From contig OZ241875.1 of assembly GCA_965203325.1 (NCBI GenBank), positions 1,760,001-1,824,000 on the forward strand: DNA of 64,000 nt. Reading direction: 5' to 3'. The first letter of the stretch is position 1. The number at the start of each line of letters is the position of its first letter. The notes under the pieces were generated by a model. The model worked only from the letters and a program-made list of their open reading frames with translations, did no database searches and had not been told where the DNA came from. Position numbers and translations under genes: made by a program. Source of the stretch: a bacterium. Lineage in GTDB: Bacteria > UBA8248. Positions 23,770 through 43,124 of the stretch are shown one piece after another.

Positions 23770-24196
23770 AGGCGAGTTGATTTAAAATTCTCTTTGGTGA
23801 ATAGAGATCTCCATAGGTGACATACAACAGTTTTTCAACAGCCCCTCCTCGGTCGGAATCGATCCACAGGCGGGGGCGGCGTCGAACCCTCCCTCTTCGG
23901 TCGGGTCCGACCAGTGACGAACTGGCTCAACTACTCGGGTGGCTTTCCGCCTTCCTACGAGAAATACCGCGAGATGCTAGAGGAGGAATAAAGGCCTCGC
24001 AAACCCTCCCTCAAGGGGTTGTTGAAAAAGCCTTTATCAAAGGAGCAACCCCCTCTACCCCTGGAAATCCGGCGCGCGGCGCAAGCCGGCGCGCATGGGC
24101 CGATTTCACATGCGCCGGAACGATGGTAGAATCGGGCGGCAAGGCCGAAAATCACGAACCAGGCAAACGACCATTCCCGGAGGAGGAAAAGCGGGA

Positions 24197-25075
24197 ATGA
24201 CTCTTCGCATCAGGGCGCGCCGGGCGGTGCTCGCGCTCGCGCTCGCCACAGGCATGATTCCGGGATTCGCGGGCGCGGCGTCCGTATCGTGCGCGTACTG
24301 GAACACGCTCGTTTTCTTCATCCGCGCCGACGCAGCGGACGTCGCCCTCTGCCTCGAGACGAAAAACGCGAACGCGCGCGACGCGGCCGGCCTCACCCCC
24401 ATGCACCGCGCGGCGGGGTTCGGGAAGACACCCGCCCTGGTGAGGACCCTGGCGGAGGCGGGCGCTCGGCCGAACGCGCGCGATGCGAACGGGATGACGC
24501 CGCTGCACCTGGCGGTGAACTTCAACAAGAAGCCCGCGGTCGTAGCCGCGCTCATCGCCGCCGGCTCCCGGACCGAGGCGAGAGAACGGCGCGGGTGGAC
24601 GCCGCTCCACCTCGCGGCGGCCTTCGGCAAAACGCCCGCCGTCGTGCGCGCGCTCGCGAAGGGGGGCGCGAAGCTCGATGCGAAGACGGGGGTCGGGCGC
24701 ACGCCGCTCCATCTGGCCGTGCAGGCGGGCGCAGCCGCCACCGTGACCGCTCTCGCGAAAGCGGGCGCAAAGGCGGACGCGCGCGACAGGTTTGGACGCA
24801 CGCCGCTCCATCTGGCCGCGCAGGGAAGTTCTCCCGCCGTCGTGCGCGCGCTCGCGAAGGCAAAGGCGAAGGTGAACGCGCGCGACACGCGCGGGAAGTG
24901 GACGCCGCTTCACCTCGCGGCGTGGTTCGGCAAGAGCCCCGCCGTCGTCCGCGCCCTCATCCAGGCGGGCGCCGACGCGCGCCTGAAGGACAAATCGGGC
25001 CGCAAGCCGCCCGATTACGCGAGGCGGAACAAGGCGCTTCAGGGGAGCACCTCCCTCTTCAAGCGGAGGAAGTGA
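24197..25075 (+). CDS. Secreted ankyrin-repeat protein (about 7 repeats)
   Basis: Signal peptide then repeated G.TP(L/M)H.AA...P.VV.AL..AGA..(N/D)ARD. Confidence 0.92.
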   Translation: MTLRIRARRAVLALALATGMIPGFAGAASVSCAYWNTLVFFIRADAADVALCLETKNANARDAAGLTPMHRAAGFGKTPALVRTLAEAGARPNARDANGMTPLHLAVNFNKKPAVVAALIAAGSRTEARERRGWTPLHLAAAFGKTPAVVRALAKGGAKLDAKTGVGRTPLHLAVQAGAAATVTALAKAGAKADARDRFGRTPLHLAAQGSSPAVVRALAKAKAKVNARDTRGKWTPLHLAAWFGKSPAVVRALIQAGADARLKDKSGRKPPDYARRNKALQGSTSLFKRRK

Positions 25076-25902: not shown

Positions 25903-28356
25903 ATGAATAATAAAGACCCTAAAGATTTATGCTTGAACCTACTGAAAGCTGATTCAGAAGAAAAAGTAATTCAAATTCTTAGAAACGAAAATTATTGGGA
26001 TGACCCAGATTGTTGGCGTTATTTCGATGATAACCCAGGCAACTTTAGCACTTGTGGAAATCAGCAGAGTAGGCCGGACTACGCCCTGGTTGAAAAAGTC
26101 GTAAATTCACTGGACGCTATATTGATAAGAAAGTGTCTTGAAGAGGGTATTAACCCCGAGGACAAAACTTCACCTCGCTCAGTCAGGGAAGCTGTTGCTA
26201 CATTTATTGAAAACTCTCCAAATCCTAAGGGTTCCAGAGCCGGTCTGATTTCTGAATGGGGAAATAAAAAAATAGCTGAAGAATCTCGGCATATTACCAT
26301 TGCCACTACCGGATTTATACCTTCGGATAAGCGGCAACCCTGCATAACAATCACCGATGCAGGCGAAGGACAAACTCCTGCGGAAATGCCAAATACATTC
26401 TTATCAAATACAGGTAACAACAAGGCAAAAATTCAGTTTGTGCAAGGCAAATGGAAAATGGGTGGTACAGGCGTATTAGTATTTAGTGGCCATCACAACT
26501 TCCAATTCATATTGAGTAAAAGATGTCCAGCTATAATGGAAGACAAAAAGAATGAATCAGATAACTAATGGGGTTTTACTATTATCAGAAGGCGAGATCC
26601 TCGGGATGATGAGCGGGTTTCAGTATATGAATATTTAGCTCCATTAAGAGTCACAAATCAGAAAAATGGAGTTTTGAGATTTGCAGCTAGTTCCCTTCCG
26701 ATTTTTCCTGAGGGACGCGAGGCGTATAAAAGAAAGGCCGAATGGGGCAGTGTCGTAAAAGTATACGAGTACGCCACCCAAGGTTTTGGGAGGTCTCATA
26801 TCTTAAGGTCGGACGGGCTTTTCGATAGGATGAATCTTCTTTTACCTGATATAGCTTTACCTATTAGGTTGCACGAATGCAGAAAAAAATACCGAGGGCA
26901 CAGCGCTAGCTTTGACACGTCATTAACTGGGCTAACGGCAAATATTGAATCAAAAAAGGATGAAAATCTCGAAGACATTTTCACATGTCCGATCGATGCC
27001 ACAGGTGAAAAACTAAATGTAAAAATTTACGTGTTCAAAAAAGACAAAGCGAAAACTTACAAAAAAAGTGAAGGAATTCTTTTTTGCGTCAACGGTCAAA
27101 CACACGCACACGTGAGTAAAAGTTTTTTTAGAAGCGAAAAAGTTGGCCTTAGCTATCTGGCTGATTCTATTTTGATAGTTCTTGACTGTAGCAACATGAA
27201 TAAAAGAAGTAGAGAAGACCTTTTTATGAACAGCAGAGACAGACTAAATAAAGGTTTGCCTATATACAAAGAGATTATAGATGCTCTGGTCGACATGCTG
27301 AAAAATCATAAGAGCATTAGAGCTCTTAACGATAAAAGGCGTGATGAAAAATTAGGGGACCAATTAAAAGATAACAAACCTTTAGAAAATATTTTAGAGG
27401 ATTTAGTCAAAAAGAATAATATGTTGTCGAACTTGTTTCGCTCAGGTAGAGCTATACCCACTAACAAAAACAAACCAGGGCCAATCCCCAAACAGGAATT
27501 CATAGGGAAAAAATTTCCCACATTTTTTAGGTTTAAGAACAAGAAAGATGGGGATTCTCTAATAAAACCATGCCCTTTTAACTCAAGATTTAGAGTTACC
27601 TTTGAGACTGACGCCACAAACGAATATTTCAAGCGTGATATTGATCCAGGAATGTTTAACCTAAAAGTCATTTCCAATGGGGTAGGAACTCCCGCGCATA
27701 ATTTTATTGGGCCAAACTTAAGTGATGGCGAAGCAACCCTCAGTGTCAAATTACCTGACAATTTTGATGTGGGAGACCGCTTCGAGATGCGGGCTGAAAT
27801 AGACGACATTAATTGTGTAGAACCTTTTCAAAATACCATAGAAGTAATCGTAGAGAAGGAAATTCCTAAACCAACTAATCCTAATCCTTCACCACGATCT
27901 AAAAAGGAGAAAGGAGGAATAGCACTACCTAAAATTAAAAAGGTAAAGAGAGCGGAATGGGGAGAGTATGACTTCGACGAAAATTCGGCACTTCGAATAG
28001 AACGAGCTGGTGCGGAAGAAAATGAAACCTATGACTTCTTCATTAACGTAGACAATCAATATCTCCTGAGCGAGATGAGAATGACAAAAGACAATCCTGA
28101 ACTGAAACAAGCGCGATATGTTTTCGGGCAAGTTATCCTTGCTTTAGGTCTTATACAAAACCACTCCCAACGCGATAAAAGAAAAAGTGCGGAACAAGAA
28201 ACCGAATACAATGCAGAAGACAATGGAATAGAAAGCTCAGTTGCACAGGTTGGGCAAGCCATATCACCGGTAATTATTCCAATGATCGAATCGTTAGGCA
28301 CTTTAGACTTAGAATCCATTCAGGCGTTTGCGTCCGATATCTATGATGACGATTGA
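25903..28356 (+). pseudogene. Large GHKL (HATPase_c/MORC-like) ATPase protein interrupted by one in-frame TAA at 26566-26568
   Basis: EKVVNSLDA, ITDAGEG, QGKWKMGGTG boxes; ORFs 25903-26568 and 26674-28356 are in the same frame and the intervening bases read open as *WGFTIIRRRDP...EYLAP. Confidence 0.75.
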
Positions 28357-29555
28357 AAATTAGACTTGAGTCTATGAAATAGAACGACTTCTTGGCTGGA
28401 ACGAAGCTTGCCTTTTGAATGTGCGTACCATTTTCTATTTGGCACAATTCGCCACGCTCTTTGGTCTTTAGTATTCGCGAGAGAAGGATATTTGATTTCT
28501 TTAAATCCACAAACACGCATTTCATTAAGATATTTAGGTAGCTGCCACTCAGGGTCAGAAAAGGCTACAAGTTGCACAACTATTGTTTCACTGTCTGAAA
28601 TCTTTGCAAGCGAAGAAAAAGAAGAGCGCAGATTTTTGAAATAATCTACTAGGTATTTCTGCTCACGATTCCCCAATGTGTAATAAGTTTCCCCATTTCC
28701 ATCCAAGGTTCCTGTGATCCAGTACGGTGCGGGAGTTTCTCTCCGACCTTGTATTTGCCATCGATGATATAGGACATGGACTCCAGGGTATGGTGGTGAA
28801 GTTAGAATTAGCTTTGGGGCTTCAACTTTGTTTTTGGAAAAAAAAGTTTTCAGATTAGAGGCGGGCAGACATAAGCAAACAGGATTGATACTCGATTTTG
28901 ACAACCAACTAGGCTTTGTTTCTTTTGCGGATTCTTTGAGAATGGTGGCTCCTGAAACCATTCTCTTGAAATAAAAAATCAGTTTTTCACGAAACTCTTT
29001 TGCTGATGGGATAGCTATTCGAGAATCCAGCGCCCATTGACCTGTCTTAAGAAGGACGCAACGTGCAAAGTTTCTTTGGCGTTGCGTTTTAAGAGAATTT
29101 AACTCAGAAATTGCGAGTGCCAAAAGTTTTCGTATCGGCCAAGTTTGCTTTCCGTTGATATTACGAAGGTATCCATTCTTTTCCCAAGTTGTTTGCAGGC
29201 TTGAAGGTTGACGAAGATTTAATTTGCTTGTGAGTGTCGCAGCCCAAGCGGACAAATCAGAAGCATCATTTTTTGACAACGTAGTTGTCTTCACCTTAGA
29301 TACGAAAATCGACAATTCATTTATATCAGAACCGATTGATTTTCTTCCCAAAGATTGTGCTTCCACTAAAGCTGTTCCGCCCCCCATAAATGGATCAAGG
29401 ATTAAGTCTCCTGGCTCCGTGAACATTTTGATGGCAACTCTAGCAAAGCTTGGTGAACATCGCGCGGGGTAACGATAAAAATCATGAGTCAATCCCGAGA
29501 CCCACGAATGATCATGGATGGCTTTAAGAAAGTCATCCTTGAGTCCATGCTTCAT
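28341..29555 (-). CDS. DNA amino-methyltransferase (probably m4C, alpha-class order)
   Basis: TH.FYRYPAR, SAM motif DPFMGGGT near N-terminus, catalytic TSPPY downstream. Confidence 0.88.
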   Translation of the reverse strand: MKHGLKDDFLKAIHDHSWVSGLTHDFYRYPARCSPSFARVAIKMFTEPGDLILDPFMGGGTALVEAQSLGRKSIGSDINELSIFVSKVKTTTLSKNDASDLSAWAATLTSKLNLRQPSSLQTTWEKNGYLRNINGKQTWPIRKLLALAISELNSLKTQRQRNFARCVLLKTGQWALDSRIAIPSAKEFREKLIFYFKRMVSGATILKESAKETKPSWLSKSSINPVCLCLPASNLKTFFSKNKVEAPKLILTSPPYPGVHVLYHRWQIQGRRETPAPYWITGTLDGNGETYYTLGNREQKYLVDYFKNLRSSFSSLAKISDSETIVVQLVAFSDPEWQLPKYLNEMRVCGFKEIKYPSLANTKDQRAWRIVPNRKWYAHSKGKLRSSQEVVLFHRLKSNFQSSS

Positions 29556-29812: not shown

Positions 29813-31171
29813 ATGCCGAGAAGAGTTGCCATTATCGGTGCGGGGGTCTCGGGACTGGGGGCGGCCTGGGCGCTGAACCGCCACCCCGAGCGGTTCGATT
29901 TCAGGCTCTTCGAGGCGCAGGAACAGGTGGGCGGCAACGCCGTCACCGCCGACATGCCGCAGGACGACGGCACCTCGATCCCCTTCGATATCTCCGTCAC
30001 CGCCTGCATCCCCTCGGTGTACCACCACATTCTTCTGCTGATGCAGATGTACGGAATCGAGCTGCTCGATACCCGGTTCAGCTACAGCGTGAAGTACCGG
30101 GGCGGCGTCTACGCGCACGATTTCGACTCCGACATCAGGCGGCAGCTGAGGCCCGAGATCGAGAAATTCCAGAAACTCTTAAGACGCCTGCAGTGGTTCG
30201 GCGTGCTCAGCCGCTCCCGCTCGCGGCTCCTGGGCGCGCTCAACCCGTTCAACTACGTGAGCATGGGCGCGGTCCTGAACCTGGGAAGATTTTCGGCTGA
30301 TTTCAGATACAAGATATTAAAACCCATGTTCGTCAACTTCCTCATGGCCACGAACGTGTTCGACATGCCCGCATCGCTGTTCTCGCGGTATCTGGAGTTC
30401 TTCGACATCGAATCCGCCACGCCGATGCAGACCTGGGACCGGGGCACGCGCCGCATCTACGAGGCGCTCTCGGCGGATTTCCGCGAAAAAATATATCTGG
30501 GCCGTCCGGTGCGGAAGGTGTACCGGGGCGCATCCGAGGTCGTCGTAGAGGATGAAGCGGGGAATAAGGAGACGTTCGATGCCGTCGTCTTCGCGTGCAA
30601 CGCGAACCAGACGCTGATGATGCTGGATGGGGCGACGAGGTTCGAGAACTGGCTGCTCTCCTCGATACGGTATGAGAGCGAACTGCACAACCACACGGTC
30701 GTCCATTCGGACGCCTCGGTGCTGCCGGATAACGACGTCCGGGCGCTCGCTACCCGCAGCAACCACATCGAACAATACGGCGCGCGGCCCGACAACTACG
30801 AGATCACCTACATCATGCACAACCAGCAGCCCTGGGCGAAGCGCTCGGACAAGCCGTGCCTGGTGACCTACAACCCCGTCAGCCGAATCGATGAGGACAA
30901 GATCATCAAGCGGTGGTGGTTTCAGCACATCGTCCACGACGTGCCCCACATCGCCTTGCTCATCCACCTGTTCCGCTTCGCGCAGGGGAGGAGGCGGACG
31001 TGGCACTGCGGCGCCCACACGCTCATCAACAGCCAGGAGACCTGTTTCGTCACCGGCCTCGCCGCGGCGAGGCAGCTGGGGGCGGACTATCCGTTTCAAG
31101 ATTCAGAAGCCAGGAAGTGGTTCAACTTCTACGGGCGCACGATGTACGGCCGGCGCTTCAAAAAGGCGTGA
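29813..31171 (+). CDS. FAD-dependent oxidoreductase (amine-oxidase fold, COG2907-like lipid desaturase/reductase type)
   Basis: RVAIIGAGVSGLGAAW, FEA...VGGNA, VHSD.SVLP, ITY.M, LVTYNP, QGRRRTWHCGA. Confidence 0.75.
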   Translation: MPRRVAIIGAGVSGLGAAWALNRHPERFDFRLFEAQEQVGGNAVTADMPQDDGTSIPFDISVTACIPSVYHHILLLMQMYGIELLDTRFSYSVKYRGGVYAHDFDSDIRRQLRPEIEKFQKLLRRLQWFGVLSRSRSRLLGALNPFNYVSMGAVLNLGRFSADFRYKILKPMFVNFLMATNVFDMPASLFSRYLEFFDIESATPMQTWDRGTRRIYEALSADFREKIYLGRPVRKVYRGASEVVVEDEAGNKETFDAVVFACNANQTLMMLDGATRFENWLLSSIRYESELHNHTVVHSDASVLPDNDVRALATRSNHIEQYGARPDNYEITYIMHNQQPWAKRSDKPCLVTYNPVSRIDEDKIIKRWWFQHIVHDVPHIALLIHLFRFAQGRRRTWHCGAHTLINSQETCFVTGLAAARQLGADYPFQDSEARKWFNFYGRTMYGRRFKKA

Positions 31172-31383: not shown

Positions 31384-32202
31384 ATGATGCACGCTCATCT
31401 CGTCCGCACCGCTTTCCTTGTTCTCGCGCTCTGCGCTTTCTTTCTGGCTCATCCGCCTGCGCCGCCGCACGCGGAGGGCGCGACGCCCGAGGAAAAAGGG
31501 CTTCAGATCGCGCGCGATACCCGCGAGAGAGCCAAGGGCTTCGGAAACTTCACGGCCGAGCAGTCCATGGTGCTGCGCAACAAGCACGGTCAGGAGAGCC
31601 GGCGCCAACTGCGCGTGAAGGTGCTCGAGACGGACGGAGGCGGCAACAAGAGCCTGTTCGTCTTCGATCGCCCGCGCGACGTGAGGGGAACCGCGCTGCT
31701 CGTCCACGCCCACAAGAAGAAGAACGACGACCAGTGGCTCTACCTGCCCGCTCTGAAACGCGTCAAGCGCATCAGTTCGTCGAACCAGTCGGGCTCGTTC
31801 ATGGGCAGCGAATTCGCCTATGAGGACATGGGCACCCAGGAGGTGGAGAAATTCACCTACCGCTACCTGCGCGACGAGCCCTGCGGCAAGCTGACGTGCA
31901 CGGTCGTCGAGCGCTTCCCGACGAACAGGCGCTCGGGCTATCGCCGCCAAATCGTCTGGCAGGACAAGGGCGAGCTTCGCGCCTGGAAAGTGCAGTACTA
32001 CGACCGGAAGAACTCGCACTTGAAGACGCTCACGGTGAAGAAGTACAAGCAGTATCTGGGCAAGTACTGGCAGGCGCACGAGATGAACATGGTGAACCAC
32101 CTCACAGGCAAGAGCACCGTGCTGAGTTGGAAGGACTTCAAGTTCCGCACCAGGCTCAAAGCCAGCGAATTCACGCGAACCGGCCTGAAGCGGGTGCGCT
32201 GA
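31384..32202 (+). CDS. LolA-like outer-membrane lipoprotein-sorting / periplasmic lipid carrier
   Basis: Signal peptide; F..P.DVRGT.LL, DDQWLYLPALKRVKRIS, SFMGSEF.YED, YYDR....LKTL. Confidence 0.85.
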   Translation: MMHAHLVRTAFLVLALCAFFLAHPPAPPHAEGATPEEKGLQIARDTRERAKGFGNFTAEQSMVLRNKHGQESRRQLRVKVLETDGGGNKSLFVFDRPRDVRGTALLVHAHKKKNDDQWLYLPALKRVKRISSSNQSGSFMGSEFAYEDMGTQEVEKFTYRYLRDEPCGKLTCTVVERFPTNRRSGYRRQIVWQDKGELRAWKVQYYDRKNSHLKTLTVKKYKQYLGKYWQAHEMNMVNHLTGKSTVLSWKDFKFRTRLKASEFTRTGLKRVR

Positions 32203-33458
32203 TGCCGCCCCGCGCCGCTTTTCCCCGCGCGGTGCTGGCCGCCGTCCCCATCCTGGCCGTTTTCCTTTTCATCGGGACGAGCCTCGGGGCCGAAAGCATC
32301 GAGCACGAACTCTCCGGCAGCCTGGACGTCGACGGCCGGTGGTATCCCCAAACAGGCGCCCATCCCGAACAGCGCGCGCACGCGAGCGGCTTCGCAGCGG
32401 AGCCGAAGCTCCATCTCGAAGGCGGGGGGAACTGGAGTTTCACGATCTCGCCGTTTTTCCGCTACGACGGCGCGGACTCACGCCGCACCCACGCCGATTT
32501 GCGCGAGGCCTATCTTCTCATGTTCGGTGAAGCCGGCGACGGGGAATGGGAGTTGCGCCTGGGTGTGGACCGCGTGTTCTGGGGCGTCACCGAATCGCAG
32601 CACCTGGTCGACATCATCAACCAGACCGACCTCGTCGAGCATCCCAACAAGGAAAGCAAGCTGGGCCAGCCCATGGCCCACCTCACCTGGTCGGCGGAGT
32701 GGGGCATCCTGGAGTTTTTCGCCCTGACCTATCACCGCGCGCGCACCTATCCGGGCCGCCACGGCCGCCTGCGCTCCTCGATTCCCATAGACGACGAGCA
32801 CGTCTCATACGAGAACGCCGCCGGGGAGTGGCGCGTGGACCTCGCCGCCCGCTACAGCCACAGTTTCGGGCCTTTCGATTTAGGCCTCAGCGTATTCGAC
32901 GGCACCAGCCGGGATCCCTTTATCACCCCGCACCTGGACGAGCGCGGCGCGCTGACCCTGCGCCAGCACTACGAACCAATCCTTCAGTTCAGCGTGGACG
33001 CCCAGCTCACAATCGAGTCGTGGCTGCTCAAGCTCGAAGCCCTTCACCGCGAAGGCGCGCGGAACCTCCTGGGAATGGAAGAGGACTACGCCGCTTTCGT
33101 CATGGGCGGGGAGTACACCTTCAATTCCATCTGGGGCTCGGCCGCCGACCTCGGCCTCCTCGCCGAATGGAATTACGACGAGCGGCGCGAGCGTTCGAAC
33201 TCCGAGTTCCAGAACGACCTCTTCTACGCCGTGCGCCTGGGACTCAACGACGCCCAGAGCACGGAGATCATCGCCGGCGTTCTCGCGGACGCGGATCATT
33301 CCACGCGCACCATGAGCTTCGAACTGAGGCGCCGCCTCTCGGACCAGTGGTCCATGAAGCTCGAAGCGATTGTGCTGATGGACGTGGATGAGGAAGACAT
33401 CATCTACGACACGAGGCGGGACAGCTTCGTGGCCCTGAACGTGACGTACAATTTCTAG
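32202..33458 (+). CDS. Outer-membrane beta-barrel protein of the type accompanying RND/LolA-like pairs
   Basis: Translationally coupled (TGATG); signal peptide, 'DLREAY', 'G...VFWG..E....VDIIN', C-terminal 'VTYNF'. Confidence 0.75.
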   Translation: MPPRAAFPRAVLAAVPILAVFLFIGTSLGAESIEHELSGSLDVDGRWYPQTGAHPEQRAHASGFAAEPKLHLEGGGNWSFTISPFFRYDGADSRRTHADLREAYLLMFGEAGDGEWELRLGVDRVFWGVTESQHLVDIINQTDLVEHPNKESKLGQPMAHLTWSAEWGILEFFALTYHRARTYPGRHGRLRSSIPIDDEHVSYENAAGEWRVDLAARYSHSFGPFDLGLSVFDGTSRDPFITPHLDERGALTLRQHYEPILQFSVDAQLTIESWLLKLEALHREGARNLLGMEEDYAAFVMGGEYTFNSIWGSAADLGLLAEWNYDERRERSNSEFQNDLFYAVRLGLNDAQSTEIIAGVLADADHSTRTMSFELRRRLSDQWSMKLEAIVLMDVDEEDIIYDTRRDSFVALNVTYNF

Positions 33459-33538: not shown

Positions 33539-35587
33539 TCAGGAAGTGAGGGCGACCGCCCGTTGGTCGCTTTCCGCCCGGTCACCCACCGCCCGATCAG
33601 ATGAGAAGATCGGGCGCTTCGACTTGATTCGGAGCTTGAGGCTCTTGCGAGGGGTGCAGGTCGGGAACGGATTGATTTTGACCGGGTAGCTCGATGGCAG
33701 CACTTCAAGCTCGAAGTAGTAGGCGATCATCAAAAGGTTGAGCGTCATTTGATATTCCGCCACTCTCGGGCCGAGGCAGGTGTGCGTACCGAAACCGAAC
33801 GCCCCGTAAGCCCCGTGTTTCTTGTGCTCCTCGCGCCCGGGAAGATACCGGTCGATGTCGAACTTCTGCGGATCCGGATAGTTCTCCTCCATGTAGTGCA
33901 CGGCGGTGGACGCCAGCACGACGCGAGCATCGAGGGGTAGTTCATAACCCTCCACGATGCAGCTGTTCATGACGGTTCTCAACTGCAACGGCACGCTAGG
34001 GTAGATCCGAAGGGTTTCGAGAATCAGCCGGTGGGCGGTGTCGATGGCCTCAGGCGTGATGTCCTCCGGATCGGGGTCTCCTTCGGCGAACAGCGCCTCG
34101 GCTTCCCTGCGCACGCGCTGAAAGACGTCCGGATGGGAGACCATCAAATAGAGCCCGAACGCGACGGCGGTGCCCATATACATGGCCGCGACGAACGGTA
34201 TGATCATCATGAACCTGGTATCGGTATCCGGAAAGTACTGCGGGTCGCTGGCGTGCAGGCTGAGCAGGTCGTCGATCAGGTCGCGGGGCTGGTTTTCACG
34301 CTGCGCCGGGGTGTGCGAGTTCCGGATCATGGAATAGACGTGGTCGATTCGCCGCCGGATGGCTTGCATTCGCGGCGTTCGCATGAAGAACTTCGGCAAA
34401 ATCTTCTGCGCGTAGGTGATCAACATGCGGTTCTTGTATTTGTGGATGTCGTCCACGTATTCTGAAAAGTCCATGCTGAACAGGAGCCGGGATACCTGGC
34501 CGGACATGAGGGTGCGGCTTGCGTCCTTGGCGACGAGCACGTCGCCCACGTTCCACGAATCAAGCGCAAGCCGTATCTCTTCGAACAGATCTCCGAGACG
34601 GTCGTTCAGGCGGCTCCGGGAGGAGGCCATCTGGAACGCCTTGCGCATACGGAAGTGTTCGGCCCCGTCCATGCCCGGCAGGCTTCTCGACGCGCCGAGC
34701 ACGGTCTCCATCCCCTCCATGGTTTCCTTCGATCGCAGGTGCATCCGACCATTCCGGTTGACCCAGATGTTCGCATCGTTCCCGGCGATGACGAAAACTC
34801 TCTTCTTGGAAAAGGGAGCCTTGATCACGAAGACCGGGCCGTAGTCGCGGTAAAGGTCGGCCAGCAGTCTGGACGTATTCCCTTGCCAAAGTGAATCTTT
34901 GCGGAGCATTTTCAACAGGCTCACGTTGGGAATGGGTTTCGTCGCTATCGCGATGGAGCGACTGACCGATGTCTCCGCGACGGCGGTGGCGACGGATCGA
35001 CTGATGCGGTCCAGCATGCCCAGCAGTTCGATACGCTCGCGTGAAGCCTCGTAGTCGCGCGGTTGCAGAAGAAACCTGAATGCGTCGCAGGCATCGGCAA
35101 GTCCGATGATGATGGCGTCACGGGGATAGGGTATGTCGTCCCCCAAGATCGTCTCGACGATCCGCTGGCGGACTATCGACCGGGACTCGCCATTGGACAT
35201 GCCGTTGTCCGCTTTCGCCGCGTCTCGCGAGAGAGACCAGAAACCGCCGTTCGTATAGTACAGGACCCCGTTTTTCGACAACCGTTCGAGAGAATGATAC
35301 AGGATATCATCCGACGTACCGGCGATTTTCTCGACCCAGTAACTGACGGTGCGTGGCTCCGGATCGGCGGCAATGGTCGCCAGAACGGGGTCGAGGAGAT
35401 CGTCTCCCATAGGTGATGGATCGTCCAACGAAAGCATCTCTTGAGCGGTGTCGATACGGGACTCGAGGTCGAGGTCCGCCAGCGCGGCGCCGGCGAGAAC
35501 GCACGAGAGATTCCAGCCCGCCACCTGTTCGAGATAGCCGCTCTCTTCGTTCAGCAACAGGAGTATGATTTCTTCCGTCAGCCTCAT
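33539..35587 (-). CDS. GPP34/GOLPH3-like domain fused to cytochrome P450
   Basis: N-terminal 'LTEEIILLLL...G....LAGA.LADL.LE.RI......P.GDDLLD..L..I' GPP34-like segment; P450 ETLR (ExxR), F.IDR, heme motif FGFGTHTCLG. Confidence 0.85.
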   Translation of the reverse strand: MRLTEEIILLLLNEESGYLEQVAGWNLSCVLAGAALADLDLESRIDTAQEMLSLDDPSPMGDDLLDPVLATIAADPEPRTVSYWVEKIAGTSDDILYHSLERLSKNGVLYYTNGGFWSLSRDAAKADNGMSNGESRSIVRQRIVETILGDDIPYPRDAIIIGLADACDAFRFLLQPRDYEASRERIELLGMLDRISRSVATAVAETSVSRSIAIATKPIPNVSLLKMLRKDSLWQGNTSRLLADLYRDYGPVFVIKAPFSKKRVFVIAGNDANIWVNRNGRMHLRSKETMEGMETVLGASRSLPGMDGAEHFRMRKAFQMASSRSRLNDRLGDLFEEIRLALDSWNVGDVLVAKDASRTLMSGQVSRLLFSMDFSEYVDDIHKYKNRMLITYAQKILPKFFMRTPRMQAIRRRIDHVYSMIRNSHTPAQRENQPRDLIDDLLSLHASDPQYFPDTDTRFMMIIPFVAAMYMGTAVAFGLYLMVSHPDVFQRVRREAEALFAEGDPDPEDITPEAIDTAHRLILETLRIYPSVPLQLRTVMNSCIVEGYELPLDARVVLASTAVHYMEENYPDPQKFDIDRYLPGREEHKKHGAYGAFGFGTHTCLGPRVAEYQMTLNLLMIAYYFELEVLPSSYPVKINPFPTCTPRKSLKLRIKSKRPIFSSDRAVGDRAESDQRAVALTS

Positions 35588-36699: not shown

Positions 36700-36906
36700 T
36701 ATATACTTCCTGCGGACCGGCGGACTCCATGGCCGTTTCGGTTCAGGAGGGTATTATACGAAAATCGCAAGAGGCGTCCGTTTCGCAAAAAAGTCGTCTG
36801 CCCTGCTCCGGCTTGCGGGCGAGTATGAAATACATCGGGATGAAAATGCCGAGGCGGCCGGCTTCGCTGATGACCGCAGCGGCAAGGTTCATTCGGTGAG
36901 CATGGA

Positions 36907-39222
36907 TCATTGCGTCTTTCGGTCGAGGGCTATCAGCAGGGGCGGCAGGAGCAGCAAATCCAGGATCAGCGCGAAGCTGAGCGTGAGCGCCACCAGGAGG
37001 CCGAGCATCCAGGTGATCGCGAATCCCGACGTGGCGAACACCAGGAAGCCCAGCACCAGGATCGAGGTCGTGGAGAACAGCGCAAAACCTACCGAACGGA
37101 AGGTGGTGCGCACCGCCTCGGGTGAGGAAAGGCCCTCGCGGCGCCCCTTCAGATACTTGCTCATGAAGTGAATCGTGTCGTCGACGACGATCCCGAAGGC
37201 GATCGCGGTCACGAGAGAACCGGCGGGCCCCACCTCGCTGTAGAGATAACCCCAGACGCCGAAGGCCATGGCAGCGGGGATGAGGTTGGGCATGAGGCTG
37301 ATGAGGCCGAGGCGCAGGCTCTTGAAAATCCCGATCAGGATCAGCGAAATGAGGACCATGCCGGTAAGCGTGCCCCACAACATGCTCAAGGTGTTCCGAA
37401 TGGCCAGATGGGCGAAGATGAGGCTGTACCCCGACGCCCCTTTCGCGAGGCCGGGCGCGTTGGCGCTGAGCCATTTCTGCCCGCGCGCTTCGAGCGCGCG
37501 CAACTCCTCGGACTTGAGTCTTTTGAGTGTGACGGTCATGCGCGTGGCGGATTTGGCGACGTTGATGCGATTGTTGAGGTCCATGCCGAAGGGAACCGAA
37601 AACTCGTAGAGCAGCAGATACTGCGCGGCAAGCCGGGAGTTTTCCGGCAGCCGGTAGAAGGCGGGATTATCGCCGTTCATGTTCTTGTTGAGGCGCTTCA
37701 TGATGTCCGTAAACACCTGGACATGCGCCACTTCCGGCTGGGCGCGGTACCATCCGGCGAAAGCCTCGACTTTTTTCAGGTACGCAGGATCGGTGATTCC
37801 GGCTTCGCGCCCGGAGTCGAGGGAGTACTCCAGGGTTTCCACGCCGGTCAGGTTCTCGATGACGAAGTCCGTGTCGCGCCGGAACTCGTAACGCTCATCC
37901 AGATGCTGCGTCCAGTTGTCCGTCAGCTCGACGCGGGGCACACCCGCCACGAGCGCGATCGCAACGACGGCCGCAGACCAGAGCAGGAACGTGCGGCGCG
38001 CGACGACGAAGGCGCCGAGCCGATCGAAGAGGCCGGAACCCCCGGCGCCCGCCTGTCGCGCGCGCAATGGCAGGACCGACAGCAGCGCCGGCAGAAGCGT
38101 CATGGAATAGGCGTAGGCGCACAGCATGCCGAACGCCACCAGGTTGCCGAGTATCCGAAAAGGCGGAGAGTCCGAGGCGTTCATGCTGAGGAACCCGATG
38201 ATCGTCGTGGCCGTCGTCAGGAACACGGGCCAGGCATTGTGGCGCAGCGATTCGGCAATCGCCGCGTCCCTGTCCAGACCTCCCCGCATGCCTGAAACGA
38301 TCGAATCGACGACGTGGACCGAGTGCGCGATGGCGAGCGTCATGATGATGAGGGGAACGCTGGAGTTGGCTGCGTTGAGCACCAGGCCGATCCAGCCGAT
38401 GACGCCCATGGCCGAGATGACGGTGAAGATGACGACGGCGATGAGGGACAGCGTGCCGAACAGGGAGCGCAGGAGGATGGCGGCGACGAACACGATGACG
38501 AGGAATGCCGCGGGCGCGAGAATCCCCATATCGTCCTGGGCCGCTTCCGTCAGGACCTGGTTCACGAAGACGTTGCCGGTAACGTGATATTCGATGTCCG
38601 GGTGCTTCGCCCGGGCCTTGGCCAGGAGGCCGCGGATATGGTTGTAAATCCGTATCTCCGCGGCGTCGGAACGCTCGGGCAAGGCGAAAATGACGACCAG
38701 ACCGGCGACGCGCCCGTCTCCCGAGACGAGACGGCCTACGACACTGCTCTCGCTCAGCGCAATCTTCTTGATCCGCGCGAGGTCTTCGTCGCCGAGCGAG
38801 CCCGCGTCGTCCACGAGGCGCTCCACGATCAAGTCGTCCCCTTCCGCCTCGGTGTGGTTATAGTTGACGAGGGAGTCGACCCGCGTGGCCCTAGGCACGC
38901 GCCACAAGTCCTCGGTCAACTCTTCGATGGCGCCGAGCGCCTGCCGCGTGAATACCGACCCGCCCTTGGGCGCGACCGCGACCACCGCCGCATTGGTCGC
39001 CGAATAAGTGGCTTCCATGGCGTCGAATGCGACGAGTTCGGGATTGCCCTCGTCCAGCATGTCGCGCCAGTCGTTGGAGATAACGATGGTGCGGAGGCCG
39101 ACCGCCAGAACCAGCATGACGCCCAGGGCCGCCGCGAGGAAGAGCCATCGGCGCCGCAACAAGAACGCAATGTAGCGGTTTAGAGGTGCGGACATCAGGG
39201 GCCTCGCTATCCGGCGGCTCAT
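36907..39222 (-). CDS. MMPL/RND-family (sterol-sensing-like) lipid transporter
   Basis: Two-fold repeat with ~12 TM; 'LT..TT..GF.S...SD.PPF', 'GIVVDDTIHF', periplasmic loops. Confidence 0.9.
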   Translation of the reverse strand: MSRRIARPLMSAPLNRYIAFLLRRRWLFLAAALGVMLVLAVGLRTIVISNDWRDMLDEGNPELVAFDAMEATYSATNAAVVAVAPKGGSVFTRQALGAIEELTEDLWRVPRATRVDSLVNYNHTEAEGDDLIVERLVDDAGSLGDEDLARIKKIALSESSVVGRLVSGDGRVAGLVVIFALPERSDAAEIRIYNHIRGLLAKARAKHPDIEYHVTGNVFVNQVLTEAAQDDMGILAPAAFLVIVFVAAILLRSLFGTLSLIAVVIFTVISAMGVIGWIGLVLNAANSSVPLIIMTLAIAHSVHVVDSIVSGMRGGLDRDAAIAESLRHNAWPVFLTTATTIIGFLSMNASDSPPFRILGNLVAFGMLCAYAYSMTLLPALLSVLPLRARQAGAGGSGLFDRLGAFVVARRTFLLWSAAVVAIALVAGVPRVELTDNWTQHLDERYEFRRDTDFVIENLTGVETLEYSLDSGREAGITDPAYLKKVEAFAGWYRAQPEVAHVQVFTDIMKRLNKNMNGDNPAFYRLPENSRLAAQYLLLYEFSVPFGMDLNNRINVAKSATRMTVTLKRLKSEELRALEARGQKWLSANAPGLAKGASGYSLIFAHLAIRNTLSMLWGTLTGMVLISLILIGIFKSLRLGLISLMPNLIPAAMAFGVWGYLYSEVGPAGSLVTAIAFGIVVDDTIHFMSKYLKGRREGLSSPEAVRTTFRSVGFALFSTTSILVLGFLVFATSGFAITWMLGLLVALTLSFALILDLLLLPPLLIALDRKTQ

Positions 39223-39898: not shown

Positions 39899-40831
39899 AT
39901 GAAACTGATTTCAAAACGGGAAAACACTTATAAACAAATGATCGTTGCGGCGGTCGCTTTAGCCGTGTTTCTTCTCCCGGCGTTCGCACCCGATGCGCGC
40001 GCGGCGGATTCGAATGCGCAAGCTGAGGGTTCGAGATGGTACTTCGGCCTGAACGTGCCGGTCATGTTCATCGACGACTCGGACAGCGTCGAGAGCGGAG
40101 CAGCGCAAGCACAAGGAGCCCCCCTGCCAGTCCCATACAGGGCGAACGCCCTCACGGAATACGCTACGGGGTACAGGATCAGCGGCGTGGTGGGCCGTGA
40201 ATTCGGCGCGGGCCTGCGCGCCGACGCCGAGCTCTTCTTCGCGAGGGCCGAGGTCGACAAGCTGATCTACAAGGGACGGACCACAACCGTGCCGCAACTA
40301 GGCACTTTTGATATCGCTGGCGACCATTCCATCCCCGTCTCCGGCTCGGCGAGCCAGTTGGGCGCCATGGTGAACGTCTGGTACGACTTTAACGCGGGCT
40401 CCAAATGGAGGCCTTACATCGGCGGCGGCTTAGGACTCGTCCGGGTCGACTGGGGCGACGTGAAGTATGACCGCAACGAGGTCGCGCAGGGGGCTGCGAA
40501 CCAGCTTGCGCTCATCGGTGCGTGTGCGCAGCTTATGCAACCTCCGGGCTGCACTCTGCCTCCACCGGTCGAACAAGGAGCCCTGGCCCTGGCCACCCTG
40601 CCCCCGGGGACCGTGCCGGACCTTTCCGACACGGATACGGTGCTCGCCTTTCAACTCGGCGCGGGGGTGGGCTACCAGTATTCTGACGCCATTACCATTC
40701 AGTTGGGCTACCGCATGCTGAAAGCCGGCGATTTGGAGTTCAGCGGCAGTAGCGCCATGGGTTCAACGGCCACGGCGACGACGGAAATGCTGGTCCATCT
40801 CTTCGAGATAGGGATACGCTATCGGTTCTAG
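39899..40831 (+). CDS. Small outer-membrane beta-barrel (OmpA-like/opacity/P44-Msp2 type) with long loops
   Basis: Signal peptide, 'MVNVWYDF', 'PYIGGGLG', 'AFQLGAGVGY', C-terminal 'GIRYRF'. Confidence 0.8.
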   Translation: MKLISKRENTYKQMIVAAVALAVFLLPAFAPDARAADSNAQAEGSRWYFGLNVPVMFIDDSDSVESGAAQAQGAPLPVPYRANALTEYATGYRISGVVGREFGAGLRADAELFFARAEVDKLIYKGRTTTVPQLGTFDIAGDHSIPVSGSASQLGAMVNVWYDFNAGSKWRPYIGGGLGLVRVDWGDVKYDRNEVAQGAANQLALIGACAQLMQPPGCTLPPPVEQGALALATLPPGTVPDLSDTDTVLAFQLGAGVGYQYSDAITIQLGYRMLKAGDLEFSGSSAMGSTATATTEMLVHLFEIGIRYRF

Positions 40832-40969: not shown

Positions 40970-42001
40970 ATGAAAACCGAGCGAATCGAACGCAGAGAAA
41001 CAGCCTCGCTTTACCCATTCCCGGAAGGCTGGTACTTCATCGCCACCCGAAAAACGATAGAGAAGAAGAAGCTGATCCAAAGAACCTGGATGGGCGAGCA
41101 GATCGTCGTCTGGTGCGACGATGAGGGGCGCATCTGCGTGGCCGAGGACCTCTGCCCGCACCTGGGTTCCGAACTCGGGCCCGAAGTCGGCGGCGTGGTG
41201 CGGGACGGCTGCCTCGTTTGTCCTTTTCACGGGTTCGAGTACGACGCCACCGGTCAATGCGTGGCCACGCCCTACGCGCCGGCGCCCAGAACCGCCAGGC
41301 TTAAGGTTTTCGAAACCCGCGAAATCCTGGGTCTCGTCTTCGCCTGGTGGGGGCTGGGCGGACGCCCGCCGCAATGGCGTCTCCCCGAAGAGCCGAGCGG
41401 AGACGACTGGAGCGACCTCGAAACCTGGAGCGTGCGGTTCTCGGGGCATCCCCAGGAAACGACCGAGAACTCCGTCGACGACGGACACCTGCGCTACGTG
41501 CACGGCTTCGGCAGCGTGAACCGGGTCGGAACGATAGAGGTGGAGGGTTCCTACCTCAAGAGCTGCTTCGACTTCACGCGAAGCCAGACCCTCGCCGGGA
41601 TGAACATCTACACATACGACGTTTCCGCCGTCACCCACGTGCACGGGCTGGGCTATTCGTTCGTCGAGGTTCACGAGGACGGCATCGGCATGGATACGCG
41701 CCTGTGGGTGCTCGCGACGCCTATCGACGGCGAGGTCATCGAAATGGTGCTGGTCAGCCAGCTAAAGCGAATACGGAAGCCGAAGCGGCCGATCTTCGGC
41801 ATGCGCTTTCTGCCGTCCGGTCTTCGCACCCGGCTCATGAACAAAATCATCATAGCGGCCCAGAAGCGCGACGTTTTATCGGACGTCGTCATATGGGACC
41901 GGAAACATTACGTGCCGCGCCCCCGCCTGTGCAGTTCCGACGGGGAGATTGGCGTCTTTCGGCGCTATTGCGAGCAGTTCTATCCGGATCGGACGGATTG
42001 A
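40970..42001 (+). CDS. Rieske non-heme iron oxygenase (KshA/Neverland-like sterol oxygenase type)
   Basis: FPEGWY, CPHLG...CPFHG Rieske cluster, ENSVDDGHLRYVH iron site, 'D..IW..K.Y...P.L...DG.I..FRR...QFY' C-terminus. Confidence 0.85.
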   Translation: MKTERIERRETASLYPFPEGWYFIATRKTIEKKKLIQRTWMGEQIVVWCDDEGRICVAEDLCPHLGSELGPEVGGVVRDGCLVCPFHGFEYDATGQCVATPYAPAPRTARLKVFETREILGLVFAWWGLGGRPPQWRLPEEPSGDDWSDLETWSVRFSGHPQETTENSVDDGHLRYVHGFGSVNRVGTIEVEGSYLKSCFDFTRSQTLAGMNIYTYDVSAVTHVHGLGYSFVEVHEDGIGMDTRLWVLATPIDGEVIEMVLVSQLKRIRKPKRPIFGMRFLPSGLRTRLMNKIIIAAQKRDVLSDVVIWDRKHYVPRPRLCSSDGEIGVFRRYCEQFYPDRTD

Positions 42002-42092: not shown

Positions 42093-43124
42093 ATGGAAAT
42101 AGGCAAACTATCGAAAGAGCTCAAGGATGCCTATCAAGAGGGGAACGTCACCCGCCGCGTGCAAGACTTCGAGGGCTGGATCGACCGGGCGGCGGAGTCC
42201 GACGGCGCGAGCGGGTACGACCACACCGAAACGGTGAAGGCCTACTACGACCTTTGCAGCGGTTTCATGGTGTGGGGTTGGGGCGAATCCCTGCATTTCG
42301 CGCCCCTCTCGCCGAACGAGAGTCTGGAGGACTCGAAAGTCCGGCATCAGCGGCTGATGATCGACAAACTGGAGTTGCAGAGGGGCATGACGGTGATCGA
42401 CGTCGGCTGCGGCATCGGCGGCCCGATGCGCCGCGTCGTCCGTGAGGCCGGCGTCCGGGTCGTCGGGATCAACATCAACAAAATCCAGCTGGAGAGGGCG
42501 AAGAGGTTGAACGCCGAGGCGGGGCTCGACCACATGATCGATTACGAGGCGTGCAGCTTCATGGATATGAGCACCATCGGGGACGAGGCGTTCGACCGGG
42601 GCTACGCCATCGAGTCGACGTGCCACGCGCCGGACAAACAACGCGCCTTCGCGGAGATATTCCGCGTCCTGAAACCCGGCGCCCTGTTCTGGGGCCAGGA
42701 GATGTGCCTGACGGAGAAGTTCGACCCGAACGACGCCCGGCACCGGACCATCAAGCGGGAGCTCATGCGCGGCATTGCGCTCAAGGAGGTCGCGACGTTC
42801 GGGGAAGTGAACCAGGCGCTCGAAGCGGCGGGATTCCAAGTCGTCGAAGGGATGGACCGGGAGGTCCGGGAGGGGCCGTCCACACCGTGGTATCAACCCA
42901 TGGAGAGTCGGCACGGGACGCTGGGCAACGCCTTGCGCAGGCTTCCGCAGGGCCGCAGGGCGGTCCTCGCGGGCTCGAAGCTGGCCGAGGTGGTCCGGCT
43001 GTTTCCGAAGGGTTCCGCGGAAGTCGTCCGGCTCCTGGATCGGACCGCGGACGCCTATGTCGCGGGCGGCAAATCGGGCATCTTCACGCCGCTGTACTGC
43101 TTCCTGGCCCGCAAACCCCTTTAG
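42093..43124 (+). CDS. Sterol C24-methyltransferase (SMT/ERG6 family)
   Basis: YYD....F..WGWGESLHFA, DVGCGIGGP, YAIESTCHAP, EIFRVLKPG, PWYQP, C-terminal GGKSGIFTPLY.FLARKP matching the ERG6/SMT layout. Confidence 0.88.
   Translation: MEIGKLSKELKDAYQEGNVTRRVQDFEGWIDRAAESDGASGYDHTETVKAYYDLCSGFMVWGWGESLHFAPLSPNESLEDSKVRHQRLMIDKLELQRGMTVIDVGCGIGGPMRRVVREAGVRVVGININKIQLERAKRLNAEAGLDHMIDYEACSFMDMSTIGDEAFDRGYAIESTCHAPDKQRAFAEIFRVLKPGALFWGQEMCLTEKFDPNDARHRTIKRELMRGIALKEVATFGEVNQALEAAGFQVVEGMDREVREGPSTPWYQPMESRHGTLGNALRRLPQGRRAVLAGSKLAEVVRLFPKGSAEVVRLLDRTADAYVAGGKSGIFTPLYCFLARKPL

What the first reader, a model, noticed from the sequence alone, without database searches (positions are those of the whole stretch)
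42093..43124. Bacterial sterol C24-methyltransferase with rewritten substrate-binding motifs
Seen: full SMT architecture, but Region I reads FMVWGWGESLHF versus the canonical FYE(Y/W)GWG.SFHF, the YEW motif reads QEM, and the IE.GDG segment reads LMRGIA. Known: Region I aromatic and acidic residues steer product outcome in fungal and plant SMTs. Inference: altered chemistry such as iterative methylation, different olefin products, cyclopropanation or a non-standard sterol substrate. This bears on who makes the unusual alkylated sterols used as biomarkers.
Basis: partly seen in the sequence, partly recalled or inferred. Interest (0 to 1): 0.72.

Follow-up and report, generated by a model that had tools for sequence, protein, structure and literature searches.

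The report
Sponge-symbiont remodelled sterol methyltransferase clade
The odd motifs are real and are shared by a whole family of sterol-methyltransferase relatives from bacteria that live in sponges; two close relatives were very likely tested and inactive on the standard sterols, so this enzyme likely adds one methyl group to a different, still unknown steroid, together with the oxidising enzymes and transporter encoded beside it.

Summary
Observation confirmed. 42093-43124 is an intact sterol-methyltransferase (SMT) homologue, 34% identical to a fungal Erg6. The rewritten motifs mark a long-stemmed clade spanning 12 phylum labels of sponge-type bacteria: M81, L89, Q223 and M225 are in 200 of 200 aligned members, and SAM and catalytic residues are kept; dN/dS is 0.12-0.22. 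Position 249 is Ile, and G249I abolishes C29/C30 products. Two members 81-83% identical are very likely Brown et al.'s '2 of 2' SMTs; they break the residue rule of all functional SMTs, so are inferred inactive on desmosterol and 24-methylenecholesterol (I could not see the figure). The gene travels with a GPP34-P450 (74 of 80 loci), an RND/MMPL transporter (67), a Rieske oxygenase (65) and a flavoprotein (36). This genome has no cyclase and only a remnant of its canonical SMT. Both oxygenases have relatives in a Planktothrix sterol cluster. Best reading: single methylation of a non-standard, probably oxidised, steroid (0.5). A C26 methylase is the bold case (0.15). This scan found the clade and cassette before on other genomes.

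The parts
42093..43124 (+). Divergent SMT-family methyltransferase (343 aa), member of the M81/L89/Q223/M225/I249 clade
   Evidence: AlphaFold model pLDDT 93.1, class I methyltransferase fold
42264..42299 (+). Region I, FMVWGWGESLHF: Y81M, E82V, Y83W, F89L; H90 kept
42696..42704 (+). Region IV QEM (Y223Q, W225M; E224 kept). A clade-fixed Trp two residues upstream (W200, 200/200)
42762..42779 (+). LMRGIA segment: E246M, position 249 = Ile
40970..42001 (+). Rieske oxygenase with KshA_C domain, directly upstream; cassette member in 65 of 80 loci
39899..40831 (+). Outer-membrane beta-barrel protein (9 of 80 loci; lineage-restricted)
36907..39222 (-). MMPL-type RND transporter (some RND/MMPL gene in 67 of 80 loci)
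36806..36892 (-). C-terminal remnant (about 29 codons) of a deleted canonical-type SMT; the gene is intact at this position in L002 (two copies), L003 and L005
35959..36699 (-). TPR protein (14 of 80 loci)
33539..35584 (-). GPP34-cytochrome P450 fusion; heme cysteine kept, I-helix lacks the usual acid-threonine pair (textbook motif, recalled); 74 of 80 loci
32202..33458 (+). Predicted outer-membrane protein, no Pfam or NCBIfam hit; local neighbour
31384..32202 (+). LolA-like protein; local neighbour
29813..31171 (+). Flavoprotein related to LkcE and, at 29% identity, to oxidoreductases encoded beside DUF1365 and a CFA-synthase-family gene (UfaD-type arrangement); 36 of 80 loci

Best explanation
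This gene belongs to a distinct clade of sterol-methyltransferase relatives in sponge-associated bacteria, and it likely transfers a single methyl group from SAM to a steroid other than the usual delta-24 membrane sterols, probably a host- or community-derived sterol that the neighbouring oxygenases and flavoprotein would modify and the RND/MMPL pump would move. Shown: clade membership, fixed pocket changes, intact SAM-binding and catalytic residues, purifying selection, cassette linkage, and absence of a cyclase and of an intact canonical SMT in this genome. Inferred: inactivity on desmosterol and 24-methylenecholesterol (from the published residue rule). Inferred: C-methylation chemistry is retained (H90, E195 and E224 kept), while the cation-stabilising aromatic cage is moved (Y81, F89, Y223 and W225 lost; W200, Y322 and F236 gained), which would put the methyl at a different acceptor position. 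Inferred: the substrate is a steroid, and it comes from outside the cell. The order of steps and the product are unknown.
For: (1) SMT ancestry and function. Sterol_MT_C is above its cut-off. The clade plus three sister proteins sit on a 0.84 substitutions/site stem (SH-aLRT 100) among canonical-type SMT rows. D125, G127, G129, P133, H90, E195 and G217 are in 200/200 rows. dN/dS is 0.12-0.22 in 7 of 7 pairs. (2) Published members. L085 has the gene order of the A. aerophoba 10000835 cluster, and its canonical SMT has Gly at 225 as stated for Ap_sym_SMT; its second SMT is 82.8% identical to ours. The preprint says T78 and F89 are conserved in all functional SMTs; both members have S78 and L89 (21/25 and 23/25), and no clade row of 200 reaches 25/25. 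(3) Cassette. Within 10 kb in 80 GTDB loci: P450 74 (adjacent in 62), RND/MMPL 67, Rieske 65, flavoprotein 36; P450+Rieske+RND together in 58. (4) Steroid link. The cassette lies within about 12 kb of an oxidosqualene-cyclase-type gene in 3 of the 7 carriers that have one. Canonical-type SMTs lie within the locus in 7 of 80 loci. The P450 domain's only plasmid match at E<=1e-25 among 72,556 records is in a Planktothrix cluster with an OSC-type cyclase, squalene synthase, ERG24 and SdmB homologues, a ketosteroid-dehydrogenase-like gene and an emopamil-binding protein. That cluster's three Rieske proteins match ours at 121-139 bits versus 64-70 for SdmA. (5) External substrate. No cyclase in this 95.5%-complete single-contig genome, none in 36 of 50 carrier genomes, and a second canonical-type SMT in only 13 of 50. 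The canonical SMT was deleted in this genome and L001, and by a different junction in L007, while the divergent gene stayed.
Against: No assay has shown any activity for this clade. The inactivity of the two tested members is my inference: Figs 2-3 and the preprint supplements were not visible. A negative in E. coli lysate can be an expression failure, and L012's member carries two further deviations (N189, M341). The residue rule is imperfect: only 36 of 94 outgroup rows score 25/25. The oxygenase links are distant (27-29% identity). Streptomyces Rieske proteins score slightly higher (148-152 bits), one of them beside a PKS, outside any sterol context. The flavoprotein's nearest annotated plasmid context is fatty-acid modification. 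Several more distant clade members have no cassette gene nearby (P450 in 21 of 32 metagenome loci of at least 15 kb). Carrier MAGs may be incomplete, so missing cyclases are not proven absent.
Confidence: 0.5

Rival explanations
1. It is the missing sterol C26-methyltransferase: it would methylate the terminal delta-25(26) olefin of (epi)codisterol or (epi)clerosterol, giving aplysterol-type and 26-methylstigmastane-precursor side chains.
For: Brown 2023 states that 26-SMTs are undiscovered and that (epi)codisterol is their expected substrate; only desmosterol and 24-methylenecholesterol were screened. In both tested clusters the clade gene sits beside a canonical SMT that makes delta-25 products ('Nitrospira 1 of 2' gave codisterol; Ap_sym_SMT gave epiclerosterol and a 25-ene C30 sterol). 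A. aerophoba's major sterol is 26-methylated. The relocated aromatic cage fits a shifted acceptor.
Against: 37 of 50 carriers lack a canonical-type SMT to make the substrate, and the canonical gene was lost repeatedly while this one stayed. Tight coupling to two oxygenases and a pump is not needed for a membrane sterol. The clade also occurs in Sarcotragus data sets, for which Brown's table lists no 26-methyl major sterol. Dictyoceratid sponges mostly have conventional side chains (recalled).
Confidence: 0.15
2. It methylates a non-steroid olefin made by the bacterium itself, such as squalene (as Botryococcus triterpene methyltransferases do) or an unsaturated acyl chain (as UfaM does), which the flavoprotein and oxygenases then modify.
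For: 48 of 50 carriers and this genome have squalene/phytoene-synthase-family genes, mostly without a cyclase. TMT-1 and TMT-2 methylate squalene (their SMT ancestry is recalled). The flavoprotein's relatives lie beside DUF1365 and a CFA-family methylase, the UfaD/UfaO/UfaM arrangement. No import of substrate would be needed.
Against: The synthase family is just as common in the window's phylum regardless of the cassette (45 of 51 genomes), so it does not discriminate. The flavoprotein is in only 36 of 80 loci. The physical links to sterol clusters and the Planktothrix matches point to steroids.
Confidence: 0.15
3. It is an ordinary C24 SMT with a narrow ring preference (for example 4,4-dimethyl, delta-7 or delta-8 sterols), or the published negatives were expression failures.
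For: 23 of 25 residues of functional SMTs are kept, including all five that the preprint lists as essential in yeast. The authors themselves allow for other substrates. Four inactive SMTs keep all the conserved residues, so lysate negatives are common.
Against: Four cage aromatics and E82 are replaced and fixed across the clade; there is a long stem branch; and it co-occurs with canonical paralogues that already do this job.
Confidence: 0.12
4. It performs O-methylation or enol C-methylation on the steroid ring (as the nematode 4-SMT STRM-1 does on 3-oxo sterols), or it only binds sterol.
For: 4-SMT also lacks the Region I aromatics. KshA-type Rieske enzymes act on 3-ketosteroids. The nearest solved folds include O- and N-methyltransferases. 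The published chromatograms tracked TMS-sterol ions, where a 3-O-methyl ether would not show (inference).
Against: GWG and HF are retained, and so is the SMT-type TCH stretch. No conserved ketosteroid-forming dehydrogenase was seen in the cassette. Full conservation of the SAM motifs argues against a binding-only role.
Confidence: 0.08

Closest known systems
'Nitrospira sp., coral reef 2 of 2' (IMG 2682229270) and 'Aplysina aerophoba JGIcombinedJ30088_10000835 2 of 2' of Brown et al. 2023 (PMC10070321)
   Same: Same clade: 81% and 82.8% identity, same M81/L89/Q223/M225/I249 states, same P450 neighbour (L012, L085).
   Different: Those copies adjoin complete sterol-biosynthesis clusters, while this genome has no cyclase. 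In the text I read they are not described as a separate family.
Canonical sterol C24-methyltransferases (fungal Erg6, plant SMT1, functional bacterial SMTs including the propylating Ap_sym_SMT and Chl_SMT)
   Same: Domain architecture, SAM motifs, H90, E195, G217; 34% to Cladosporium Erg6 and 45% to the L085 canonical SMT.
   Different: T78, Y81, E82, F89, Y223, W225 and E246 are replaced; Ile at 249; no G249 or F81/F83 propylation signature; linked to oxygenases and a transporter rather than to a cyclase.
GPP34-P450 fusion of sponge symbionts (Ferreira et al. 2025, PMC11706023)
   Same: The cassette P450 has this architecture, reported as exclusive to sponge symbionts (656 proteins) and expressed in situ.
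   Different: That paper proposes phagocytosis modulation; its main text has 0 hits for 'methyltransferase' and 'sterol'. The linkage found here points instead to a small-molecule pathway.
Clusters of steroid genes in Ircinia symbionts (Kelly et al. 2022, PMC9531527)
   Same: SMT1/ERG6 annotations enriched in symbiont MAGs of about 10 phyla, with transfer between them.
   Different: Those clusters are ERG24-CYP51-LSS. This cassette mostly occurs without them, so part of the reported SMT enrichment may be this clade (inference).
Repurposed SMT-family enzymes: nematode 4-SMT STRM-1 (PMC6997595) and Botryococcus TMT-1/2/3 (PMC5978867)
   Same: Precedent for related methyltransferases acting on other positions or other triterpenes; 4-SMT has a changed Region I.

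Membership tests
SMT protein family (sequence) | Class I methyltransferase domain plus Sterol_MT_C domain | tested here: met
   model and fold search
SMT protein family (sequence) | Groups with SMTs by sequence and tree | tested here: met
   All named full-length hits checked among the representatives are SMT-type or methyltransferases; long-stem clade among canonical-type rows. No non-SMT outgroup was in the trees.
Functional sterol C24-methyltransferase | SAM-binding Region II DxGxGxxGP and the yeast-essential H90, D125, G129, P133, E195 | tested here: met
   200/200 for each of the five
Functional sterol C24-methyltransferase | All 25 residues conserved in assayed functional SMTs (Brown & Welander 2025) | tested here: not met
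   23 of 25 (S78, L89); 0 of 200 clade rows reach 25; controls Erg6 and L012's canonical SMT score 25
Functional sterol C24-methyltransferase | Region I aromatic signature Y81-E-Y-G-W-G86 | tested here: not met
   M-V-W-G-W-G
Functional sterol C24-methyltransferase | Methylates desmosterol or 24-methylenecholesterol | not testable with these tools
   Inferred negative for two members at 81-83% identity; result figures not visible
Propylating (iterative) bacterial SMT | Gly at 249 (necessary) | tested here: not met
   Ile 198/200, Val 2/200; G249I and G249V lose C29 and C30 products
Propylating (iterative) bacterial SMT | Phe at 81 and/or 83 | tested here: not met
   This protein has M81/W83. 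F83 is in 8 of 200 close members and in 35 of 68 metagenome rows, never with G249.
De novo bacterial sterol pathway | Oxidosqualene cyclase, CYP51, SdmAB and canonical SMT in the genome | tested here: not met
   No cyclase; two P450s only, neither in a sterol cluster; SdmA query hits only the cassette Rieske weakly, and the SdmB query nothing at 1e-8; canonical SMT only as a remnant; one ERG24-family gene at 30% elsewhere
Sterol C26-methyltransferase (hypothetical) | Methylates delta-25(26) sterols | not testable with these tools
   No known member to compare
4-SMT / triterpene methyltransferases | Sequence relationship to STRM-1 or TMT-1/2/3 | not tested
   No named sequences obtained; the TMT paper was not held

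The most novel reading that the evidence does not exclude
This clade is the long-sought sterol C26 (terminal side-chain) methyltransferase, carried on a cassette shared by sponge symbionts of about a dozen phyla. Bacteria would then extend host or community sterols into aplysterol-type and 26-methylstigmastane-precursor side chains, and the second 'sponge biomarker' would have a bacterial enzyme behind it.
Probability: 0.15. Interest if true: 0.85.

Novelty: new variant of a known kind. Interest (0 to 1): 0.45.

Why it matters
The cassette is one of the more widely shared accessory modules of sponge symbionts, and its chemistry is unknown. It gives the published symbiont-only GPP34-P450 a candidate metabolic role. 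It also warns that ERG6 annotations in symbiont genomes overcount C24 methylation capacity. And it supplies a short, cheap list of enzymes and substrates to test for the undiscovered C26 methylation behind 26-methylstigmastane, a marker used for the earliest animals. It does not look like a source of 24-isopropyl sterols.

Tried and rejected
Iterative C24 alkylation: rejected on I249 and M81 and on the preprint's mutants. Pseudogene or relaxed drift: rejected, since the ORF is intact, the states are fixed and dN/dS is 0.12-0.22. Eukaryotic contamination: rejected, as the gene lies among bacterial genes, with orthologues at 88-98% in the same genus. A first fold with 20 close homologues failed (pLDDT 38.9); the deeper alignment worked, but the coordinates could not be inspected, so no pocket geometry or docking was done. 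Fold search and PDB sequence search found only generic class I methyltransferases; the PDB chain labelled '24-sterol C-methyltransferase' (6f5z) is a weak, 231-aa match. Fusions with oxygenases: none among 8 long hits, which is weak evidence. P0019 joins a Rieske C-terminal piece to the SMT and looks like read-through of a truncated Rieske, as in L085 (inference). Squalene-synthase co-occurrence was uninformative against the phylum control. Expression: contigs of one sponge metatranscriptome cover relatives of the gene, but the run had a small word share and RNA libraries can hold DNA, so expression is not shown. The promoter and terminator scan was at chance level. No plasmid homologue at E<=1e-20. 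The protein atlas gave no result. No text statement of which SMTs were inactive was found in the paper, the first preprint or the peer-review file. Two reviews gave nothing on the cyclopropyl-sterol precursor; that petrosterol derives from 24-methylenecholesterol is recalled only. Cyclase, canonical-SMT and synthase counts cover 50 of the 80 GTDB loci (L004, L006, L028 and L054-L080 not searched).

Full report
Observation. The ORF at 42093-43124 encodes an intact 343-aa protein with a class I methyltransferase domain and a Sterol_MT_C domain above Pfam cut-offs. It is 34% identical to a Cladosporium Erg6. With a 111-sequence alignment it folds confidently (pLDDT 93.1); its nearest solved structures are generic class I methyltransferases at 15-25% identity.

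The changes define a clade. The protein search listed 120 relatives at 77-92% identity. Their titles cover 12 phylum labels, among them Gemmatimonadota, Chloroflexota, Latescibacterota, Rhodothermota, Nitrospirota and Nitrospinota; the labels need 22 changes on the tree against a minimum of 11, which fits transfer but does not prove it. In the window's own phylum the gene is in 11 of 23 genomes of its genus (one partial) and 0 of 28 others. An IQ-TREE run on 45 rows puts the clade (SH-aLRT 99) and three sister proteins on a 0.84 stem (100) among canonical-type SMTs. In 200 clade rows M81, L89, Q223 and M225 are invariant and I249 is in 198, while H90, D125, G129, P133, E195 and G217 are invariant too. 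Aromatic residues are lost at 81, 89, 223 and 225 and gained at own positions 200, 236 and 322. dN/dS against 7 orthologues is 0.12-0.22. The rows are partly redundant, so the counts show fixation, not independent events.

Habitat. Of 16 runs that hold at least a fifth of the gene's words, 8 are labelled sponge metagenome (3 studies), 1 coral reef, and 7 carry coded organism names. All 76 loci from the JGI collection of 241 million records come from 10 record sets; 31 carry prefixes that Brown's Supplementary Table 4 lists as sponge metagenomes, and the other 45 I did not identify.

Members appear to have been assayed. Brown et al. 2023 (PMC10070321; parts 1-4 of 7 read, supplementary file 4 whole, files 1, 2 and 6 in part, figures not seen) tested 'Nitrospira sp., coral reef' SMTs 1 and 2 on a 70,077-bp contig. 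L012 lies on a 70,077-bp contig. Its order ERG24, sdmA, sdmB, SMT, three genes, SMT matches gene numbers 277 to 270, so '2 of 2' is the clade gene, 81% identical to ours. L085 shows sdmA, ERG24, CYP51, SMO-OSC, SMT, a Rieske fragment, SMT (L084 adds sdmB), matching the A. aerophoba 10000835 numbering. Its first SMT has Gly at 225, as the preprint gives for Ap_sym_SMT; its second is 82.8% identical to ours. Brown & Welander 2025 (bioRxiv 10.64898/2025.12.19.695621; parts 1-4 of 5 read, figures and supplements not seen) list 25 residues conserved in all functional SMTs, including T78 and F89. Both members lack these two. The 2023 paper reports 2 of 10 symbiont and 2 of 14 environmental SMTs as inactive and marks inactive SMTs inside gene clusters. 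I infer that both were inactive on desmosterol and 24-methylenecholesterol; no sentence naming them was found. The preprint also shows that Gly249 is needed for C30 products and that G249I gives only C28, which counts directly against iterative alkylation by this clade.

The cassette. Within 10 kb in the 80 loci: GPP34-P450 74 (adjacent in 62), RND or MMPL 67, KshA-like Rieske 65, flavoprotein 36; 3 loci have none of the four. Order and strand are shuffled. In the more divergent metagenome set linkage is looser: P450 in 21 and Rieske in 16 of the 32 loci of at least 15 kb. In the window the Rieske is directly upstream, and the MMPL, TPR, P450 and flavoprotein genes lie within 13 kb. The GPP34-P450 is the symbiont-only fusion of Ferreira et al. 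2025 (PMC11706023; abstract, passages and part of the Results read; the spreadsheet supplement searched; the PDF supplement with the flanking-gene figure not held). Its main text never mentions a methyltransferase or sterols.

Uncoupled from sterol synthesis, yet tied to steroids. This genome (95.5% complete, one contig) has no triterpene cyclase. Of 50 carrier genomes searched, 7 have an OSC-type cyclase domain (called from the score pattern and gene context), 10 a hopene-type domain, 36 neither, and 13 a second, canonical-type SMT. At 36806-36892 a 29-codon remnant shows that a canonical-type SMT was deleted here. L001 shares the lesion, L007 has a different internal deletion, L011 has no clear trace, and L002, L003 and L005 keep intact copies. 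The divergent gene is thus kept when the canonical one goes. On the other side, in 3 of the 7 OSC-bearing carriers (two Nitrospirales, one from the window's genus) the clade gene is within about 12 kb of the cyclase. The P450 domain's only plasmid hit at E<=1e-25 is in a Planktothrix agardhii cluster with an OSC-type cyclase (741 bits on TIGR03463, below its cut-off of 851, like the L085 cyclase at 720), squalene synthase, ERG24 and SdmB homologues, a ketosteroid-dehydrogenase-like gene, an emopamil-binding protein and three Rieske proteins related to ours. These links are distant (27-29%), Streptomyces Rieske proteins score slightly higher, and the flavoprotein's relatives sit in furan-fatty-acid-type operons.

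Mechanism. The enzyme most likely still binds SAM and delivers a methyl group to an electron-rich carbon, with H90 as base (roles from the preprint). The moved aromatic cage and the bulky Ile249 would shift the acceptor position and block repeat rounds. The acceptor is most likely a steroid from the host or community that the P450, Rieske protein or flavoprotein have changed, with the pump moving substrate or product (0.5). Rivals: C26 methylation of delta-25 sterols (0.15), a self-made olefin such as squalene or an acyl chain (0.15), an ordinary C24 SMT missed by the assay (0.12), ring or O-methylation (0.08).

Novelty. Bacterial SMTs, their enrichment in sponge symbionts (Kelly 2022, PMC9531527, passages) and the GPP34-P450 are published. 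Nine literature searches found no paper that describes this clade or the cassette as such; subscription journals and the first author's thesis are outside the library. PMC12541326 (passages) says the origin of the side-chain-elongating SMTs is still open. Earlier agents of this scan reached the same clade-and-cassette reading on other genomes. I had the L012 match and the cassette before that look-up. Not seen in the eight summaries shown: the deleted canonical SMT, the I249 argument and the Planktothrix link. Verdict: a real new variant of the SMT family with unknown substrate; interest 0.45.

Noticed in passing
L163 (NZ_LR882940.1, 36.5-59.1 kb): A Planktothrix agardhii plasmid carries a sterol-tailoring-type cluster: OSC-type cyclase, squalene synthase, FAD monooxygenase, ERG24 and SdmB homologues, four P450 ORFs, three Rieske proteins, a ketosteroid-dehydrogenase-like gene, a carbamoyltransferase and an emopamil-binding protein. 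It suggests an undescribed cyanobacterial steroid natural product in a culturable host.
   Followed up: partly
window 36806-36892 (-); L001 about 4750-4835; L007 about 1765-1890: Separate deletions of the canonical-type SMT between the MMPL and TPR genes within one genus; L002 instead has a tandem pair.
   Followed up: yes
window 33539-35584 (-): The window's GPP34-P450 is a second subfamily, only about 43% identical to the form in most cassettes; L005, from the same genus, has the common form at the same position, which suggests replacement. The I-helix lacks the usual acid-threonine pair in the variants listed.
   Followed up: partly
L164 4964-7421 (G000:C1 about 3.712-3.714 Mb): A second P450 plus methyltransferase pair (30% to the SMT-like protein, no Sterol_MT_C hit) lies near peptide-export-like genes and an RND pump.
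   Followed up: no
L165 2278-2931 and 16138-19653: A stand-alone short GPP34 gene; 13 kb away, a gene fusing a NUDIX-like N-terminus (by eye) to two squalene/phytoene-synthase domains beside an HpnE-like gene, in a genome with no cyclase.
   Followed up: no
window 25903-29555: Low-GC island (about 40-44%) with a large ATPase-like gene split in two ORFs and a DNA-methyltransferase-like gene (by eye), plus a transposase at 22126-23571 and an ankyrin-repeat gene at 24095-25075, just left of the cassette.
   Followed up: no
P0123, P0124, P0126: Three sister proteins (42-57% identity) share L89 and Q223 but differ at 81-83 and 249; they are intermediates of the pocket remodelling, and their gene context was not seen.
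   Followed up: partly
L136, L145, L146: Three divergent clade members have Gln in place of the proposed base H90.
   Followed up: no
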